NCBI RefSeq assembly: GCF_965219715.1
Contig: NZ_OZ244785.1
Coordinates: forward strand, 484,673 to 548,672
Direction: 5' to 3'
From: Bacterioplanoides sp.
Lineage (GTDB): Bacteria; Pseudomonadota; Gammaproteobacteria; Pseudomonadales; Oceanobacteraceae
Length of the DNA: 64,000 bases
The number at the start of each line of letters is the position of its first letter. Positions within the stretch are counted from its first letter, which is position 1. Position numbers and translations under genes: made by a program. This document shows positions 12,918 through 19,028 of the stretch, piece after piece. The notes under the pieces are model-generated. The model saw nothing but the letters and a program-made list of their open reading frames with translations, was not told the DNA's origin and ran no database searches.

Positions 12918-15872
12918 TTACAGCGCCTGAATTTTCTCGATTTGCTCTTTCAGCTTAGCGATATCACGCTCGAAACCAGCGGCTTTTTCTTTCTCTTTTT
13001 CGATAACCGCAGCGGGAGCTTTGTCGGTAAAGCCTGGGTTGCCCAGCTTGTTGGTTACGCGATCCAGATCTTTGCCCAGCTTCTCAATCGATTTATTCAG
13101 ACGCGCAACTTCGGCGTCTTTATCGATAAAGCCAGCCATTGGAATCAAAATTTCCATGTCGCCAACTAACTGAGTGACCGACATTGGTTCTTCATCACCT
13201 TCGTTCAGCCAGGTCAGCTTCTCCAGCTTGGCCAGCTTCATCAGGAAGGCCTGGTTTTCTTCAGCACGACGGAAGTCATCGTCGTCGCCGTTTTTGAACA
13301 ATAATTCCAGTTCTTTACTTGGTGGAATCTGCTTTTCACCACGTACGTTACGTACCGCGGTGATCACATCCTGCAGCCATTTTACGTCAGCTTCCGCGTC
13401 GGTATCGATCAGGGCTTCCTGAGCTTGCGGGAATTCCGCCAGCATAATGCTGTCACCAGATTTACCCGCCAGCTCTTTTACCTGCTGCCAGATTTCTTCG
13501 GTGATAAACGGCATGATTGGGTGAGCCAGTCGTAATACCGCTTCCAGTACACGAACCAGAGTGCCCAGGGTGCCACGCTTAGCTTCGATTGGTGCATTTT
13601 CGTCCCACAGAACCGGCTTAGACAGTTCCAGGTACCAATCGCAGTATTCGTTCCAGATAAATTCGTACAGCGCAGACGCCGCCATATCGAAACGGTACTG
13701 GTCGAAGTGACGACGCACTTCCTGCTCGGCAAATTGCAGGCGGGAAATAATCCAGCGATCTGCCAGAGACAGCATTGCATCTTCGCCGTTGGCGCCACAC
13801 TTGGCTTTCATTTCGTCAGTGATGGCGATGGTGGTGCCATCTGCTGCGGCTTTATCAACCGCTTCTTCGCCAGCAACCGATAACATCACATAACGCGAGG
13901 CGTTCCATAACTTGTTACAGAAGTTACGGTAACCCTCCAGACGTTTCATATCCCAGTTGATATCACGACCGGTAGAAGCCATCGCCGCCAGGGTGAAACG
14001 CAGGGCGTCGGTACCGTGTGGTGCAATGCCTTCCGGGAATTCTTTTTTCGTGCGCTTGCCAATTTTCTCAGCCAGCTGTGGCTGCATCATGTTGCCGGTA
14101 CGCTTGTGCATCAGGTTGTCGAGGGAAATACCATCGATCATATCCAGTGGGTCGAGTACGTTACCCTTGGATTTCGACATCTTCTGACCGACTTCGTCAC
14201 GAATCAGGCCGGTCACGTAAATGGTTTTAAACGGTACCTGAGCTTTGCCGTCTTCATCTTTGCAGAAGTGCATGGTCATCATGATCATGCGCGCAACCCA
14301 GAAGAAGATAATATCGAAACCGGTAACCAGAACGTCAGTCGGGTGGAAGTCCTGCATGCGTTTCAGTACTTCAGGATCATCCAGGTTTGGCCAGCCTAAG
14401 GTGCCGAAGGTCCATAGGGCAGAGGAGAACCAGGTATCCAGAACGTCGTTGTCCTGAACCAGTTCAACGTCGGCCGCCAGGTTGTTTTGCTCACGCACTT
14501 CTTCTTCGGTACGCGCAACGTAGACGTTACCTTCTTCGTCGTACCAGGCCGGGATACGGTGACCCCACCACAGCTGACGGGAAATACACCAGTCCTGGAT
14601 GTCGCGCATCCAGGAGAAGTACATGTTTTCGTAGTTTTTCGGCACAAATTCGATGTCGCCGTTTTCAACCGCTTCGATAGCCGGTTTCGCCATGGTTTTC
14701 GCGTCAACGTACCATTGGTCGGTCAGCATTGGCTCAATCACCACGCCGCCACGGTCGCCATAAGGGATAACCATGTCGTTTTCAGCGATTTCAACCAGCA
14801 GGCCGGCTTCTTCGAAATCGGCCACAATGGCTTTACGCGCCGCAAAACGCTCCATGCCGCGGTATTTTTCAGGAATAAAACCAGACAGTTCGTTATTCAC
14901 GCTGCCGTCGGTGTTGAAGGTCTGAGCTTCGTCGCGGATATCGGCGTTAAAGGTCAGCACGTTGATCATCGGTAATTTACAGCGCTGGCCAACTCCATAG
15001 TCATTGAAGTCGTGGGCCGGAGTGATTTTCACACAGCCGGTGCCTTTTTCCATATCGGCGTGTTCATCACCAACGATTGGAATACGACGCTCAACAAACG
15101 GCAGTACCACTTCTTTGCCAATTAAATGCTTGTAGCGTGGATCTTCCGGGTTAACGGCTACGCCGGTATCACCCAGCATGGTTTCCGGACGAGTTGTTGC
15201 GACCACGATATGAGCGTGTTCGTTACCGTCTTCGTCTTTGTAGGTTAAGCCGTCAGCCAGTGGGTATTTCAGGTGCCACATCTTGCCTTTTACGTCTTTG
15301 TTTTCGACTTCCAGGTCAGAGATGGCGGTGTGTAATTTCGGGTCCCAGTTAACCAGGCGCTTACCGCGGTAGATCAGGCCGTCTTTGTATAAACGAACGA
15401 ATACTTCCTGAACCGCTTTGTAGAAACCGTCGTCCATGGTGAAACGTTCGGTTTCCCAGTCAACGGAGTTACCTAAACGGCGCATCTGGCTGGTGATGGT
15501 GCCACCGGAGTGTTCTTTCCACTCCCAGATTTTTTTAGTGAATTCTTCACGACCTAGCGCGTGACGATCTGGCTGGCCTTCCGCCGCCAGTTTACGCTCA
15601 ACCACCATCTGGGTGGCGATACCGGCGTGGTCGGTACCAACCTGCCACAGGGCTTTGTTGCCGTTCATACGCTTGTAGCGGGTGAGGGCATCCTGAATGG
15701 TGTGCTGGAACGCGTGACCCATGTGCAGCGAGCCGGTGACGTTCGGCGGCGGAATCATGATGGAATATCCTTCGCCGGTCAGGTGGTCCTGATAAGGTTT
15801 GAAATAACCTTTCTCTTCCCACTGCTTGTACCAGTTTTGCTCTAAAGCGTTGGGTTGATACGTCTTATCCAT
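12918..15872 (-). CDS. valS: Valine--tRNA ligase
   Basis: [13 protein letters not shown] (HIGH), [17 protein letters not shown] and C-terminal coiled coil. Confidence 0.99.
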
Positions 15873-16031
15873 AGTGCTCGTTGCTACTCGTTCGTTGTAT
15901 TCGGGCGTTTTGTTCGGAATGCGTCAGTGGCGGGCGTTTGTTTAAATGCCAGTCAGTGCGCGAAAAATGGGGCGTATTATAGCGGAAGTAAAGCAAGGAA
16001 GCAGCCGGTTTTCAGCGGCTTTTACAGGCAT

Positions 16032-16069
16032 AAAAAAACGCCGCTCAGGGCTGACTGAGCGGCGTTTTT
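16032..16069 (-). terminator. Intrinsic terminator
   Basis: AAAAAAACGCCGCTCAG..CTGAGCGGCGTTTTT hairpin. Confidence 0.8.
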
Positions 16070-16100
16070 GTTAATGACGTTGTTATTAATGGCGATGTGC

Positions 16101-16955
16101 TCAGAGTTTATCAGCCAGAATCTGACGTAACCGCGCTTCAATTTCCGGCATCATTTCGTGTACCAGCTGGTCGATGATGGCGGTTTTGTGCAGCTCGGTC
16201 AGTGGTACTGAACTGGCCGCTGGTGTAGCTGCAGGCTTGATCGGCTGTGGTGGTTCTTCCGCCGGAGTTCCCATGATTTTCGCCATGGTCGCTTGTGCCT
16301 GTTCGGCGCTGAACTGGGCGGCTTCACGTTCACGAGCCAGGCGCTCCAGTACCGCCTGGGGCAGGAATGGGTTGTTCGATGCCACTGTCGACTTGATTTG
16401 TGGCGCTGCAGTCGACATTAGTGGTGGTTCTGATGATTGTTGGGCAGATTGGTCGGATGAGCGCTCAACGGGCTGTTCAGTTTCCGCCCCCGCAGGCTGC
16501 CGGTCATCCAGTGCAAACACATCGTTGTCAGCCAGGGTTGGAATGTCGATATCGTTGGCGGCCGGGTTGCCCTGTGGTTCATCGAACAGGTCAACATACA
16601 CGTCGCTGTTATTGTCCAGAGCACTGTCGATCAGATCGGCAATGGCGTTTGGATCAAAACTGGTGGCTTCTTCTTCGAGTGGGAAGATGGCTTCGTTGGA
16701 AGAGGGCTGGTTAGGATTGAATGCAGGTTTGGCGACGGCTTTGAGAACGGGGGCTTCGGGTTTGAGCAATGGTGGTTCCGATTGCATTGCCGCTTTGTCG
16801 CCCAGAGCATCACTGAGTACCGGGATGTCCTGGGCAGGCTCAATCACGGGTACGGCTTTTGCCTGATCCACCTGATCACTGGCGGCGTCATCAAGCACCC
16901 GCTGCAGTGTCTCTAACTCGTCTAACAAGTCACGTGGTTCGTTGCTGTTGCTCAT
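16101..16955 (-). CDS. Acidic, Pro-rich, largely disordered protein with terminal helices (PopZ-like architecture)
   Basis: N-terminal helix DLLDELETLQRVLDD, long D/E/P/A/Q-rich linker, C-terminal IIDQLVHEMMPEIEARLRQIL; abuts the holC stop. Confidence 0.8.
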   Translation of the reverse strand: MSNSNEPRDLLDELETLQRVLDDAASDQVDQAKAVPVIEPAQDIPVLSDALGDKAAMQSEPPLLKPEAPVLKAVAKPAFNPNQPSSNEAIFPLEEEATSFDPNAIADLIDSALDNNSDVYVDLFDEPQGNPAANDIDIPTLADNDVFALDDRQPAGAETEQPVERSSDQSAQQSSEPPLMSTAAPQIKSTVASNNPFLPQAVLERLAREREAAQFSAEQAQATMAKIMGTPAEEPPQPIKPAATPAASSVPLTELHKTAIIDQLVHEMMPEIEARLRQILADKL

Positions 16956-17393
16956 CTAGCGCATTCTCATATCGGTATGGGTTATAGGATAACCCCGGTC
17001 TTGCAAATATTTATAGTGTTTTCGAGTGTAGTTCAGTACGTCGTCCTGTTGAACCACTACCTCAACCAGACGATGAAATCGGCTGAAAAAGTCTGGTAGC
17101 TGATGGCTGAGATTGATCAGCACATCATGCTGGTGTCCGGCATCGGCCTGCCAGCCAATACTGACCTGACAATTAGCCGGAGCCTGTGGATCATTCAGCA
17201 GGGCGTGGGGCACAAAGGCATCATCACGATAGCACCAGAGTAATTCACTAAATGCCTTAGCCTGTTGCTCTGAATCAAGCTGAATTAACACCTGATTGCC
17301 TTGGCGGCTGGCTTTTTCGGTTAAACGGCAGGCGAACTGCCATTGATCCTGCTGTTGTTGTCCGGCCAGGATATAGAAGCCAACGTCGGTCAT
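16956..17393 (-). CDS. holC: DNA polymerase III subunit chi
   Basis: VGFYIL..FACRLTEKA..LWCYRDDAFVPH..FSRFHRLVEVV..RKHYKYLQDRGY. Likely start 17393; ORF track 17423. Confidence 0.95.
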   Translation of the reverse strand: MTDVGFYILAGQQQQDQWQFACRLTEKASRQGNQVLIQLDSEQQAKAFSELLWCYRDDAFVPHALLNDPQAPANCQVSIGWQADAGHQHDVLINLSHQLPDFFSRFHRLVEVVVQQDDVLNYTRKHYKYLQDRGYPITHTDMRMR

Positions 17394-17409
17394 CGCTTGT
17401 GTTCTCTGT

Positions 17410-18078
17410 TCATGGCTCGCCACGCTCGGTCTGGATAAAGCCGGCCATTAACCAGTGAATATGCTGGTGAAACACGGTTTTAAAATCGACCAGTAATATA
17501 TTGAACGGCGGCTGTTGCATGGCCTCTGCGGCGGTTTCGCTTGGGTGAGCTATGTGCCAGCAGCCAATCATGGTGGCCTGAATATGGTGTAACAGGCTGA
17601 TAGCCTGGGGAATGGAAATGCCCAGCCAGTCGGAAATTTTCTGGGCGAAACGTGCCATTAGTGGCATTAATTCGCGCTTAAAGTCTTTTGCTTCATCAAC
17701 GGTCAGATTCTGTTCCAGCACGGTATGCAGAATGGCATTCAGGCGGCAAAACAGCGGATGCTGGTTGATCACTTCAACGCAGGCGTCGGCCGGAGTTCGT
17801 TGTTCATCCAGCGCCTCGGCAGAAACCACCATGGCTTCGAGCTGTTGCAGATAGAGCGCCAGAAACAGCGTTTCCTTTGAACGGAAATAGCGATACAGCG
17901 CCGCTTTAGTGATGCCGATGTGTTGTGCAATATCGATCAGATTCACCTTATCAAACGCGGCATCGTCAAAATGCACGGCCGCAGCGTCCAGAATTTGCTG
18001 GCGACGCAGGGCTTTTTGTTCCGGGCTTTTGGCTCGCTGGCGAATTTCCGGGATGGCGTTGTCTGATTTGGCGGTCAT
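17410..18078 (-). CDS. TetR/AcrR family regulator
   Basis: HTH LIDIAQHIGITKAALYRYFRSKETLF. Confidence 0.9.
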   Translation of the reverse strand: MTAKSDNAIPEIRQRAKSPEQKALRRQQILDAAAVHFDDAAFDKVNLIDIAQHIGITKAALYRYFRSKETLFLALYLQQLEAMVVSAEALDEQRTPADACVEVINQHPLFCRLNAILHTVLEQNLTVDEAKDFKRELMPLMARFAQKISDWLGISIPQAISLLHHIQATMIGCWHIAHPSETAAEAMQQPPFNILLVDFKTVFHQHIHWLMAGFIQTERGEP

Positions 18079-18110
18079 AAGGTACTGCAGTGACTTAACT
18101 CGCTAATGGG

Positions 18111-19028
18111 CTACTGATCAACATTCAGGTCAGAGGTATTCTGCGTTGCTGATGGGTTTTGTGCAAACTGGTGCAATACCACATCAATAGTGACGGTCAG
18201 GTTCTCCCGCGCCAGCAATCGATCACGCGCTTCCTGGCTGGCTTTCCATACATGGGGTGTCATCAACAGTAAGTCGTGAATCTGCTCCGAACTGGTCAGT
18301 TCAATGGTGTAGCTCAGCGGTTGTTCGTTAACGCAGAAAAATCCGTTGTCTTCCATTACCCGGGTCGGGTTAAAGCAGCTGTCTTTAACTTGCGGGTAGA
18401 GGATTTCGCGCATTTCGCGTAGATGGCCAAGGCCGGTATTGATGGTAAATACCTGACCTTCCGGGCGCAGTACCTTGCTGAAACCTTCCGGCATCAGGCG
18501 GGTAAACAAACAGCAGATATGGTCGAGGCTGTGTTGCTGAAACGGCAAGTCAGCGCCGGACGCAACCAGCCATTCGAGCTGATTGTTGGCCGCTTCAAGC
18601 TGTTTGCCACGACGAGCCGCCGCGCGTACCGCATCCTTGGAAATATCAACGCCGTAGACACGATGCGTATGTTGGCTGTTGCTCAGCGACTGCGATAAGC
18701 GGGTGGTGTAATAACCCTCGCCACAGCCAACATCACACAGCTGCAGTGACTGATCGGCAACCAGGCTGTTATTTACGGCCTTATTTAATAGCTCAGAAAT
18801 AGGCTGGTATACACCGGAATCCAGCAGCCGTTGGCGTGCGTCGACCATGTCGGCACCGTCGCCGGGAGACTTTGAACGCTTTTTATGCGCCAGCAGTAAA
18901 TTCAGGTATCCCTGGCGCGCACGGTCGAAGCTGTGGTTGTTGTCGCAGCGCCAGTGCTTATGGTCGTCACTGCTCAGTGGCTCGCGGCACACCGGGCAGA
19001 TCAGTTGTGAAGGTAAAGCCTGGGTCAT
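18111..19028 (-). CDS. rlmA: 23S rRNA m1G745 methyltransferase
   Basis: N-terminal Zn finger CPVC..CDNNHSFDRARQGYLNLL and SAM motif DVGCGEGYY. Confidence 0.9.
   Translation of the reverse strand: MTQALPSQLICPVCREPLSSDDHKHWRCDNNHSFDRARQGYLNLLLAHKKRSKSPGDGADMVDARQRLLDSGVYQPISELLNKAVNNSLVADQSLQLCDVGCGEGYYTTRLSQSLSNSQHTHRVYGVDISKDAVRAAARRGKQLEAANNQLEWLVASGADLPFQQHSLDHICCLFTRLMPEGFSKVLRPEGQVFTINTGLGHLREMREILYPQVKDSCFNPTRVMEDNGFFCVNEQPLSYTIELTSSEQIHDLLLMTPHVWKASQEARDRLLARENLTVTIDVVLHQFAQNPSATQNTSDLNVDQ

What the first reader, a model, noticed from the sequence alone, without database searches (positions are those of the whole stretch)
16101..16955. PopZ-like intrinsically disordered protein encoded directly upstream of valS in a gammaproteobacterium
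Seen: a short N-terminal amphipathic helix (DLLDELETLQRVLDD), a ~200-aa acidic Pro-rich low-complexity linker, a helical patch (LPQAVLERLARERE) and a C-terminal helix (IIDQLVHEMMPEIEARLRQIL), lying between holC and valS. Established (from memory, needs checking): alphaproteobacterial PopZ (DUF2497) has this helix-IDR-helical-bundle layout, forms polar condensates, and is commonly encoded just upstream of valS. Inference: a remote homologue or analogue, i.e. an undescribed condensate-forming polar hub in gammaproteobacteria.
Basis: partly seen in the sequence, partly recalled or inferred. Interest (0 to 1): 0.7.

Follow-up and report, generated by a model that had tools for sequence, protein, structure and literature searches.

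The report
PopZ-like acidic scaffold after holC
This is a real gene for a very acidic, mostly disordered protein with conserved end helices. It belongs to a large unnamed gammaproteobacterial family that sits where alphaproteobacteria keep the pole-organiser PopZ and faintly resembles it, so it may be a PopZ relative in a group thought to lack one.

Summary
Window 16101-16955 (-) is a 284-aa ORF (pI 4.1, net charge -31). Its ATG directly follows the holC stop codon. An intrinsic terminator follows it, and valS starts 228 nt further on. AlphaFold2 gives helices at 7-27, 102-115, 200-229 and 254-283; the rest is disordered.

It belongs to an uncharacterised family:
- 79 of 201 genomes of its order have it, including 119-129-aa Pseudomonas forms that NCBI names "DNA polymerase III subunit chi".
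- holC is always directly upstream.
- Similar small acidic [IV]P[VIL]L proteins lie between holC and valS in 20 of 30 other gammaproteobacterial families sampled.

PopZ membership is not shown. DUF2497 and family profiles fail to find each other in profile-to-sequence searches. Profile-profile comparison gives weak, collinear matches of N helix to N helix (P=8.5e-5) and C helix to C helix (P=3.8e-4). Both beat all 38 natural decoys and the cross-module controls.

My reading is a modular PopZ-type scaffold, probably a remote homologue (about 60%). Its clients are unknown. A replisome link is suggested by coupling to holC and by a clamp-binding motif in Cellvibrionaceae relatives. Self-assembly and polar localisation are untested.

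The parts
16101..16955 (-). Gene X: 284-aa acidic, mostly disordered protein (pI 4.1, net charge -31). It is the last gene of the holC operon.
   Evidence: ORF. No Pfam or NCBIfam hit. Homologues. Third-codon-position bias of differences, 23 of 34. AlphaFold2 model.
16872..16934 (-). N-terminal amphipathic helix, aa 8-28 (RDLLDELETLQRVLDDAASDQ). It is the family's most widely conserved module and a candidate partner-binding helix.
   Evidence: Invariant E13 L14 E15 L17 V20 L21 D22 D23 among close homologues. Helix 7-27 in AlphaFold2. hhalign against PopZ H1 gives P=8.5e-5, with controls at 0.03 or worse.
16803..16832 (-). Short linear motif QDIPVLSDAL, aa 42-51. Family consensus is (D/E)(D/E)IP(V/T/L/I)L(D/S/E)(D/E).
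   Evidence: P45 and L47 are invariant. The motif is found in 156 of 180 family members. Its pLDDT stays low both alone and fused to HolC.
16515..16553 (-). Second DIP-type motif, DIDIPTLADNDVF (aa 135-147). A weaker copy, EAPVLKAV, lies at aa 67-74 (16734-16757).
   Evidence: Motif scan. Family members carry 1-3 copies.
16605..16646 (-). Short predicted helix inside the linker (AIADLIDSALDNNS, aa 104-117). It is followed by YVDLFDE (aa 120-126), a clamp-motif-like string that lacks the Gln.
   Evidence: AlphaFold2 helix 102-115, pLDDT about 70-78. It is conserved only among the closest relatives.
16272..16376 (-). Invariant NPFLP motif plus a 30-residue helix (aa 194-228). This module is specific to part of the family and has no counterpart in PopZ.
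   Evidence: N195 P196 F197 L198 P199 are invariant across 45-57 sequences. Helix 200-229. hhalign against PopZ modules gives P 0.2-0.4. The module is absent from the short Pseudomonas forms.
16104..16190 (-). C-terminal amphipathic helix, aa 256-284 (IIDQLVHEMMPEIEARLRQILADKL). It is the candidate self-association module.
   Evidence: P270, L276 and R277 are (nearly) invariant. Helix 254-283, pLDDT 81-95. hhalign against the PopZ C-terminus gives P=3.8e-4, aligning IDeLVxEmL-P with lEdlVremLrP.
16031..16069 (-). Intrinsic terminator after gene X: a 10-bp G+C-rich stem, a 6-nt loop and a U7 tail. It separates the holC-X transcript from valS.
   Evidence: Sequence. Fold energy -26.7 kcal/mol, z=-5.0, 0 of 200 shuffles as stable.
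16956..17423 (-). holC (DNA polymerase III chi). Its TAG stop is immediately followed, in the same frame, by the ATG of gene X.
   Evidence: PF04364 E=3.7e-40. Junction. In relatives the spacing is 0, -1 or -4 nt in the close clade and 4-160 nt elsewhere.
12918..15872 (-). valS, the downstream neighbour on the same strand, 228 nt after gene X.
   Evidence: ORF. valS follows the family gene in most loci, and follows popZ in 25 of 30 alphaproteobacterial loci.

Best explanation
Gene X encodes a modular, strongly acidic scaffold or adaptor protein. It belongs to a large, unnamed gammaproteobacterial family that is the positional counterpart of PopZ and probably (about 60%) a remote homologue of it.

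Shown here:
- It is a real gene under purifying selection.
- It is translationally coupled to holC and ends at a terminator before valS.
- It consists of a conserved N-terminal amphipathic helix, one to three DIPVL-type short motifs inside a variable acidic Pro/Ala-rich disordered linker, an NPFLP-helix module and a conserved C-terminal amphipathic helix.

Inferred, by analogy with PopZ:
- The C-terminal helices (200-229 and 254-283) self-associate into small oligomers.
- The polyanionic linker keeps those oligomers apart and projects the N-terminal region.
- The N helix and the DIPVL motifs are binding sites that recruit client proteins.

The clients are unknown. Two observations make replisome or chromosome-linked proteins the most likely candidates. 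The gene is always co-expressed with chi, and the Cellvibrionaceae branch of the family carries a canonical beta-clamp-binding motif. Whether the protein forms polar condensates is open.
For: Architecture and disorder:
- AlphaFold2 gives helices 7-27, 102-115, 200-229 and 254-283, with the rest below pLDDT 50.
- pI 4.1 and net charge -31.

Family and module conservation:
-.
- 79 of 201 genomes of the order have it.
- Pseudomonas has a short form that keeps the N helix, the DIPLL motif and the C helix.

Operon structure:
- A 0-nt holC-X junction here; 0, -1 or -4 nt overlaps in the close clade.
- holC is directly upstream in 36 of 38 and 30 of 30 loci.
- A terminator follows X.

Link to PopZ:
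- popZ is directly upstream of valS in 25 of 30 alphaproteobacterial loci (PMC5686542).
- Module-wise hhalign gives N-N P=8.5e-5 and C-C P=3.8e-4. These are the best of all cross and reversed controls and lie beyond 38 natural decoy windows, whose minimum P was 0.012.
- The full-length hhalign top two hits are the same collinear pair.
- Other gammaproteobacterial holC-valS proteins end in Q-L-x3-LP-E-L-I, which resembles PopZ's W-L-D-x-N-LP-x-L-V. For one of them DUF2497 is the top Pfam hit, covering model positions 3-71 of 75 at E=0.029.
- Other Pseudomonadota lineages have acidic repeat proteins with a DUF2497-like C-terminus directly upstream of valS.

Replisome clue:
- LPGQxSLF(D/E) occurs in 42 of 180 family members against 4.4 expected by shuffling, and in 16 of 18 Cellvibrionaceae loci.
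Against: - Profile-to-sequence searches fail in both directions.
- The matched stretches are short amphipathic helices. Reversed controls for the C helix reach P=0.002-0.004. Module windows were chosen after I had seen the motifs.
- PopZ's W151 aligns with Arg, and the H4 half of PopZ's trimeric coiled coil is missing.
- The DIPVL versus VLELTD motif match (P=0.012) is no better than the decoys.
- The linker is less acidic and less Pro-rich than the PopZ linker.
- The clamp-binding motif is absent from this protein and its clade.
- The HolC-X read-through fusion model gave no sign that any X motif docks on chi.
- No oligomer modelling or experiment was possible, so self-assembly is pure inference.
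Confidence: 0.5

Rival explanations
1. X is a replisome accessory or adaptor with no evolutionary link to PopZ. It is made together with chi and binds chi, or other proteins that recognise the SSB tail, through its acidic DDIPVL motifs. These motifs would mimic the SSB C-terminal tip, DDDIPF. In some lineages it also binds the beta clamp. It would tune traffic at SSB-coated DNA.
For: - Strict, order-wide adjacency and translational coupling to holC, while valS is sometimes not adjacent.
- The genome's own SSB ends in DFDDDIPF. The family motif consensus is (D/E)(D/E)IP(V/L)L(D/E)(D/E), in 156 of 180 members.
- A canonical clamp-binding motif, LPGQQSLFD, is conserved in the Cellvibrionaceae branch.
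- The terminator places X in the holC transcript, not the valS transcript.
Against: - The motif is internal, so it lacks the free C-terminal carboxylate that established SSB-tail pockets recognise (established knowledge of the chi/SSB-Ct complex, from memory).
- In many shorter gammaproteobacterial forms the motif is not preceded by acidic residues.
- In the HolC-X fusion model the motif stays at pLDDT 43-51 and the helices do not gain confidence.
- The clamp motif is missing in this clade and in Pseudomonas.
- holC-valS adjacency is ancestral in gammaproteobacteria, so the linkage to holC could be positional only.
- A separate psi subunit exists elsewhere in the genome.
Confidence: 0.22
2. 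X is a PopZ analogue by convergence only. It would be an unrelated acidic disordered protein whose helices merely look like PopZ's, because short amphipathic helices are alike. The shared position next to valS would be coincidental. Its role could be anything, for example a small chaperone-like or regulatory partner of a neighbouring gene product.
For: - All profile-to-sequence tests are negative.
- Reversed-sequence controls reach P about 0.002-0.004 for the C helix.
- The comparison of the gammaproteobacterial short-form C-terminus with X is no better than its reversed control.
- The NPFLP module has no PopZ counterpart.
Against: - Two cognate modules match collinearly and beat every natural decoy.
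- The same gene position and strand relative to valS recur in two classes.
- Intermediate forms exist with DUF2497-like C-termini upstream of valS.
Confidence: 0.2
3. The ORF is not a functional gene, for example a spurious reading frame in a long holC-valS spacer.
For: Low-complexity composition and no match to any curated family.
Against: - Hundreds of homologues have conserved modules and intact frames.
- 68% of differences from a close relative fall at third codon positions.
- Start-stop coupling to holC is conserved.
- A terminator is placed after the ORF.
Confidence: 0.01

Closest known systems
PopZ, pole-organizing protein Z (Pfam DUF2497, PF10691) of Alphaproteobacteria
   Same: - Short N-terminal amphipathic helix: L-x-S/T-I/L-R/Q-R-I/V-I/L-x-D-D in both.
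- Acidic Pro-rich disordered linker of variable length.
- Conserved C-terminal amphipathic helix with an internal Pro: LVxEML(R)PxL/I.
- Gene directly upstream of valS on the same strand.
- Weak collinear profile-profile matches of the N and C modules.
   Different: - No match to the DUF2497 model, and no reciprocal HMM detection.
- The C-terminal helix is shorter, lacks the H4 half (NLPxLVERLVRxEIERV) and lacks the Trp that stabilises the PopZ trimer.
- It has an extra NPFLP-helix module and DIPVL motifs.
- The linker is about twice as long and less acidic and Pro-rich.
- The gene is coupled to holC, which is not found next to popZ in the alphaproteobacterial loci examined.
- The literature states that PopZ occurs only in alphaproteobacteria (PMC9512792).
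DUF2486 (Pfam PF10667), an uncharacterised proteobacterial family
   Same: It appears to model another branch of the proteins encoded right after holC. Its only above-threshold hit in 301 gammaproteobacterial genomes lies 38 nt downstream of holC. Its first 39 positions align with the N-terminal IPTLTDV region of a holC-valS protein.
   Different: Gene X and its family do not match PF10667 at E<=1. The function of DUF2486 is unknown as well.
HubP / FimV polar hub proteins of Gammaproteobacteria
   Same: They are the polar organisers known in this class: acidic, repeat-rich scaffolds that recruit many clients.
   Different: HubP and FimV are large membrane-anchored proteins with a LysM domain. 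X is small and cytoplasmic, has no membrane segment, and shows no sequence relation to them. This comparison rests on my own knowledge and was not tested here.
C-terminal tail of SSB (DDDIPF) and clamp-binding motifs (QL[SD]LF) as replisome short linear motifs
   Same: The family motif (D/E)(D/E)IP(V/L)L resembles the SSB tip. Cellvibrionaceae members carry LPGQQSLFD, a textbook clamp-binding motif. The gene is co-expressed with chi, which is the SSB-tail reader.
   Different: The DIPVL motif is internal rather than C-terminal. The window's protein has no canonical clamp motif, only YVDLFDE. No docking signal appeared in the HolC-X fusion model.

Membership tests
PopZ / DUF2497 (PF10691) | Match to the Pfam DUF2497 model at or above its gathering score (27 bits). 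| tested here: not met
   No hit at E<=1 for X or for 20 homologues. A six-frame search of the own genome at E<=10 gives three other places and not X.
PopZ / DUF2497 (PF10691) | Reciprocal detection by profile-to-sequence search. | tested here: not met
   Family profile A2 finds no PopZ locus in 30 alphaproteobacterial genomes at E<=10. The PopZ C-module HMM ranks X 69th of 26,431 ORFs. The N-module and full-length HMMs do not place X in the top 400.
PopZ / DUF2497 (PF10691) | N-terminal client-binding helix H1 (MEEILASIRRII.DD). | tested here: inconclusive
   hhalign of N module against N module gives P=8.5e-5, probability 60%, over 17-22 columns. Cross and reversed controls give 0.03-0.11, and 38 natural decoys give 0.012 or worse. 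The match is suggestive but short.
PopZ / DUF2497 (PF10691) | C-terminal H3H4 trimeric coiled coil with Pro146 and Trp151/Leu152 (PMC12999525). | tested here: inconclusive
   hhalign of C module against C module gives P=3.8e-4, probability 36%. X P270 aligns with the PopZ Pro, and invariant L276 with Leu152. Trp151 aligns with Arg, and the H4 half is absent. Reversed controls give 0.002-0.004. Oligomeric state was not modelled.
PopZ / DUF2497 (PF10691) | Tripartite layout: N helix, acidic Pro-rich disordered region, helical C-terminal region. | tested here: met
   AlphaFold2 secondary structure and pLDDT and composition. The PopZ layout is taken from PMC9512792.
PopZ / DUF2497 (PF10691) | Gene directly upstream of valS on the same strand (a typical feature, not strictly defining). 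| tested here: met
   X lies 228 nt upstream of valS. popZ does so in 25 of 30 alphaproteobacterial loci (PMC5686542).
PopZ / DUF2497 (PF10691) | [quoted passage not shown] | not testable with these tools
   Only monomer AlphaFold2 was available, with no coordinates or PAE. This needs multimer modelling and experiments.
DUF2486 (PF10667) | Match to the Pfam model. | tested here: not met
   It is absent from the hit lists of X and its homologues at E<=1, and there is no hit in the own genome.
DNA polymerase III psi (HolD, PF03603) | Psi fold and the N-terminal clamp-loader-binding peptide. | tested here: not met
   X has no match. A separate psi candidate, with LEYLQAMGITQWMPREP resembling the E. 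coli psi N-terminus, lies at C1:3675579-3676340 of the genome.
DNA polymerase III chi (HolC, PF04364), the name NCBI gives to the Pseudomonas relatives | Match to PF04364. | tested here: not met
   X and the Pseudomonas short forms have no PF04364 match. The true chi is the upstream gene. The name looks like a spill-over from the neighbouring gene.
Beta-clamp-binding proteins (QL[SD]LF motif) | A canonical clamp-binding pentapeptide in a disordered region. | tested here: not met
   The window protein has only YVDLFDE (aa 120-126), without the Gln. Cellvibrionaceae relatives do have LPGQxSLF(D/E).

The most novel reading that the evidence does not exclude
The holC-valS proteins of Gammaproteobacteria, including this one and the 122-aa Pseudomonas aeruginosa protein now labelled chi, would be true orthologues of PopZ. 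All would descend from an ancestral proteobacterial scaffold gene linked to valS. They would self-assemble through the Pro-kinked C-terminal helix into PopZ-like oligomers or condensates. In this class they would be wired to the replisome, through co-translation with chi and a clamp-binding motif in some clades, rather than to ParB alone. PopZ-type membraneless organisers would then not be an alphaproteobacterial speciality.
Probability: 0.25. Interest if true: 0.85.

Novelty: new variant of a known kind. Interest (0 to 1): 0.62.

Why it matters
PopZ is a leading bacterial model for condensate-forming organisers, and the literature states that it occurs only in alphaproteobacteria. Here a conserved, uncharacterised gene family occupies the same genomic slot in gammaproteobacteria, has the same modular design and shows faint collinear sequence similarity. 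In Pseudomonas it is mis-named as chi.

If the relation is real, it gives a directly testable candidate for a cytoplasmic scaffold in well-studied laboratory organisms such as Pseudomonas and Cellvibrio. It also suggests a link between such scaffolds and the replisome.

Even if the relation is not real:
- The family deserves a name of its own.
- The chi annotation should be corrected.
- The conserved clamp-binding motif in one branch identifies a new probable beta-clamp partner.

Tried and rejected
- **Curated family scans.** Pfam and NCBIfam scans of X, 20 homologues, Pseudomonas forms and distant members gave nothing significant.
- **Solved structures.** A PDB sequence-profile search found no hit at E<=10.
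- **Psi hypothesis.** X as a cryptic psi subunit is rejected. It has no fold and no match, and a psi candidate lies elsewhere.
- **Docking on chi.** I used the fact that the holC stop and the X start are in frame to fold a HolC-Q-X read-through fusion. HolC folds at pLDDT about 95. The X motifs do not gain confidence compared with X alone, so there is no docking evidence. The test is weak: there were only 6 paired rows and no PAE or coordinates.
- **Failed alignments.** Two attempts to add unpaired X rows or fragments to that alignment failed, because MAFFT stacked them on the HolC columns. They were discarded.
- **DIPVL versus PopZ VLELTD.** The cognate pair scores best, but P=0.012 is no better than natural decoys. 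It stays a lead only.
- **Short-form C-termini versus X.** The comparison of gammaproteobacterial short-form C-termini with the X C-terminus is no better than its reversed control.
- **Transcript evidence.** The one metatranscriptome that holds the locus gave 1.7-kb and 30-kb contigs of even depth. This shows that a 97% relative is present, not that the gene is transcribed.
- **Literature.** Searches for PA3833, holC with valS, and PopZ homologues in gammaproteobacteria found no description of this family.
Full report
**1. What is there**

Window 16101-16955 (minus strand) is an ATG-to-TGA ORF of 284 codons. On the same strand it lies between two genes:
- holC at 16956-17423 (PF04364, E=3.7e-40);
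- valS at 12918-15872.

The holC stop codon TAG is followed at once, and in the same frame, by the ATG of the ORF.

Downstream of the ORF's stop codon there is a strong intrinsic terminator at 16031-16069. It has a 10-bp G+C stem, a 6-nt loop and a U7 tail. Its fold energy is -26.7 kcal/mol, z=-5.0, and none of 200 shuffles folds as well. valS starts 228 nt after the ORF. The gene, called X here, therefore closes the holC transcript and is separated from valS.

**2. Is it a real gene?**

Yes.
- It has 46 close homologues.
- A profile of 20 of them finds 246 proteins at E<=0.001 among 1.84 billion representatives.
- Four modules are conserved while the sequence between them varies freely in length and content.
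- 23 of 34 listed differences from a 97%-identical relative fall on third codon positions of this frame.

**3. Anatomy**

The protein has pI 4.1, 50 D+E against 19 K+R, 15% Ala and 11% Pro. AlphaFold2 with a 57-sequence alignment predicts four helices:
- aa 7-27;
- aa 102-115;
- aa 200-229;
- aa 254-283, with pLDDT up to about 90.

Almost everything else is below pLDDT 50.

The conserved modules are:
- the N helix, RDLLDELETLQRVLDDAA;
- a short motif, (D/E)(D/E)IP(V/T/L/I)L(D/S/E)(D/E), present in 156 of 180 members in 1-3 copies; here it lies at aa 42-51, with further copies at 67-74 and 135-147;
- an invariant NPFLP leading into the 200-229 helix;
- the C helix, LIDxLVxEMLPxIEARLRxxL.

**4. 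The family and its neighbourhood**

No Pfam, NCBIfam or PDB sequence match exists for X or its relatives.

Named relatives come from Bacterioplanoides, Thalassolituus, Oceanobacter, Bacterioplanes and many Cellvibrionaceae. By the search tool's kinship labels, the window's genome shares a genus with genomes that match named Bacterioplanoides records.

With the family profile, 79 of 201 genomes of the order have a match. Among them are Pseudomonas genomes. There the gene order is pepA-holC-X-valS, and X is only 119-129 aa: N helix, PPLLTE and DNIPLL motifs, and C helix, with no NPFLP module.

holC is directly upstream in 36 of 38 named loci and in 30 of 30 loci of the order-wide sample. valS follows in most but not all of them. 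The holC-X spacing is 0, -1 or -4 nt in the close clade and 4-160 nt elsewhere.

Outside the order the profile almost vanishes: 3 weak hits in 300 genomes. Those hits are again small acidic proteins between holC and valS.

I then took 30 diverse gammaproteobacterial holC loci directly.
- 20 have a small acidic ORF between holC and valS. It carries an [IV]P[VIL]L.[DE][VI][VI] motif near the N-terminus and amphipathic C-terminal helices, which often end Q-L-x3-LP-[ED]-[LI]-[IV].
- 5 have holC and valS directly adjacent.

X is therefore one branch of a very widespread, fast-evolving set of holC-valS proteins.

Pfam's DUF2486 seems to cover another branch. Its only above-threshold hit in 301 genomes lies 38 nt after holC.

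NCBI names most Pseudomonas short forms "DNA polymerase III subunit chi", although they lack PF04364. This is best explained as a name spilled over from the neighbouring gene.

**5. The PopZ question**

PopZ has an N-terminal client-binding helix, an acidic Pro-rich disordered region and a helical oligomerisation region (PMC9512792; PMC12999525). popZ lies directly upstream of valS in 25 of 30 diverse alphaproteobacterial loci, as PMC5686542 also says.

Membership of DUF2497 fails by profile-to-sequence tests:
- PF10691 does not match X or its homologues.
- PF10691 does not ring at this locus in a six-frame search of the genome at E<=10.
- The X family profile finds no PopZ in 30 alphaproteobacterial genomes at E<=10.
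- HMMs of PopZ modules rank X 69th of 26,431 ORFs, or worse.

Profile-profile comparison is more favourable.
- Full-length hhalign returns, as its top two hits, the collinear pair C helix to PopZ C region (P=0.005) and N helix to PopZ H1 (P=0.027).
- Module against module, N-N gives P=8.5e-5 (probability 60%), aligning LESIxxxLDD with LASIRRIIxDD.
- C-C gives P=3.8e-4 (probability 36%), aligning IDeLVxEmL-PxIEaxLR with lEdlVremLrPmLkeWLD.
- Cross-module controls give 0.04-0.12.
- Reversed controls give 0.03-0.11 for N but 0.002-0.004 for C.
- Thirty-eight natural decoy windows from HolC, ValS and RlmA alignments give a minimum P of 0.012. Their scores are all below both cognate scores.
- The NPFLP module matches nothing in PopZ.
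- A third resemblance, X (D/E)DIP(I/V)L(T)(D/E) against PopZ DD(V/I)LELT(D/E), which is present in 16 of 41 PopZ sequences, scores best among its controls. At P=0.012 it is no better than the decoys.

In the aligned C helix, X P270 falls on the PopZ Pro and invariant L276 falls on Leu152. PopZ's Trp151 is Arg in X, and the H4 half of the coiled coil is missing.

Three bridging observations point the same way:
- The LP-E-L-I endings of other gammaproteobacterial forms align with PopZ's NLP-x-L-V (P=0.0013; controls 0.008-0.06).
- For one such protein DUF2497 is the top Pfam hit, E=0.029, covering model positions 3-71 of 75.
- Other Pseudomonadota lineages have acidic repeat proteins with a DUF2497-like C-terminus directly upstream of valS.

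I put remote homology at about 60%. It is not proven. The module windows were chosen after I had seen the motifs, so the P-values are optimistic.

**6. Links to the replisome**

Two independent hints exist. The first is the strict coupling to holC described above. The second is a motif, (V/P)LPGQ(Q/G/R)SLF(D/E), in the linker of 42 of 180 family members, against 4.4 +/- 2.2 expected from shuffles. It matches the beta-clamp-binding consensus QL[SD]LF, which I cite from memory. It is confined to the Cellvibrionaceae branch (16 of 18 named loci). It is absent from the window's clade, from Pseudomonas and from 148 PopZ sequences.

The DDIPVL motif also recalls the SSB tip. The genome's own SSB ends in DFDDDIPF.

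To test docking on chi, I folded the natural in-frame read-through HolC-Q-X with an alignment of 30 rows.
- HolC folds at pLDDT about 95.
- The DIPVL motif stays at 43-51.
- The X helices change little compared with X alone.

This gives no support for docking. The test is weak, because the pairing was shallow and no PAE was available.

X is not the psi subunit. A psi candidate with the typical N-terminal peptide lies elsewhere in the genome.

**7. Most likely mechanism**

X is a modular acidic scaffold of the PopZ type.
- *Shown:* the architecture, the module conservation, the operon structure, the position relative to valS, and the weak collinear similarity to PopZ.
- *Inferred:* the C-terminal helices self-associate; the polyanionic linker spaces the oligomers and projects the N-terminal region; the N helix and DIPVL motifs recruit clients.

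The clients are unknown. Replisome or chromosome-linked proteins are the best guess. Polar condensate formation is possible but untested.

The rivals are:
- a pure replisome adaptor unrelated to PopZ (0.22);
- convergence with an unrelated role (0.20);
- a spurious ORF (0.01).

**8. Novelty**

I found no paper describing this family. The literature says that PopZ is found only in alphaproteobacteria.

Earlier notes of this scan flagged the same idea in other genomes. One follow-up on a 121-residue Pseudomonas protein reached the same cautious verdict. These are AI notes, not independent evidence, though I reproduced their core claims here.

I class the finding as a new variant of a known kind: a PopZ-like scaffold family in a new class, coupled to holC, with extra modules.

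Noticed in passing
L062-L083 (Cellvibrionaceae loci); for example L062:4236-5285: The Cellvibrionaceae branch of the family carries a conserved (V/P)LPGQ(Q/G/R)SLF(D/E) in the disordered linker. This is a textbook beta-clamp-binding motif. It occurs in 16 of 18 named loci and in 42 of 180 family members, against 4.4 expected by shuffling. It points to an undescribed clamp partner encoded next to chi.
   Followed up: partly
L115:2676-3047 and L116:2390-2779; proteins P0305-P0424, including P0391 (Pseudomonas aeruginosa, 122 aa): The short Pseudomonas homologues between holC and valS are named "DNA polymerase III subunit chi" in NCBI and UniRef, although they have no PF04364 match. The real chi is the gene upstream. 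This is probably an annotation spill-over.
   Followed up: partly
L148-L177 (30 holC loci from diverse gammaproteobacterial families): 20 of 30 loci have a small acidic ORF between holC and valS, with an N-terminal [IV]P[VIL]L.[DE][VI][VI] motif and C-terminal helices often ending QLxxxLP[ED][LI][IV]. Five loci have holC and valS directly adjacent. For the L152 protein, DUF2497 is the top Pfam hit (E=0.029, model positions 3-71 of 75).
   Followed up: partly
L178 (G745:C65:20-259, minus strand), next to holC at 298-699: The only above-threshold DUF2486 (PF10667) hit in 301 gammaproteobacterial genomes lies 38 nt downstream of holC. This Pfam family of unknown function seems to be another branch of the same holC-downstream proteins.
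   Followed up: partly
L118, L121, L123, L143 (unnamed Pseudomonadota lineages f58 and f71): Highly acidic Glu-rich repeat proteins end in LVREMVSSML..LPELVEEIVREEIxRIR. They are weak DUF2497 hits on the C-terminal half of the model, and they lie directly upstream of valS. A disordered scaffold gene next to valS may be widespread in the phylum.
   Followed up: partly
Own genome, contig C1:3675579-3676340 (outside the window; locus L016): A 250-aa ORF begins MLEQTRLEYLQAMGITQWMPREP, which resembles the N-terminal clamp-loader-binding peptide of E. coli psi. PF03603 matches only at E=0.33. It is probably the long, cryptic psi (HolD) type known from Pseudomonas.
   Followed up: partly
Window 17410-18078 and 18111-19028 (minus strand): A TetR-family regulator (TetR_N plus TetR_C_34) overlaps the holC start by 14 nt, and an RlmA-type rRNA methyltransferase lies just upstream. 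Related genera keep rlmA next to holC, but only some have the TetR gene. pepA, the usual upstream neighbour of holC, is not here.
   Followed up: partly
Window 16031-16069: The terminator hairpin is flanked by an A7 run on one side and a T5 run on the other. It could therefore terminate transcription in both directions, although no convergent gene is evident here.
   Followed up: no
Window 15600-18200, run X5: A coral "metatranscriptome" holds a 97%-identical relative as 1.7-kb and 30-kb contigs of even depth. This looks like DNA carried into the RNA library. It places close relatives of this organism in coral-associated samples.
   Followed up: no
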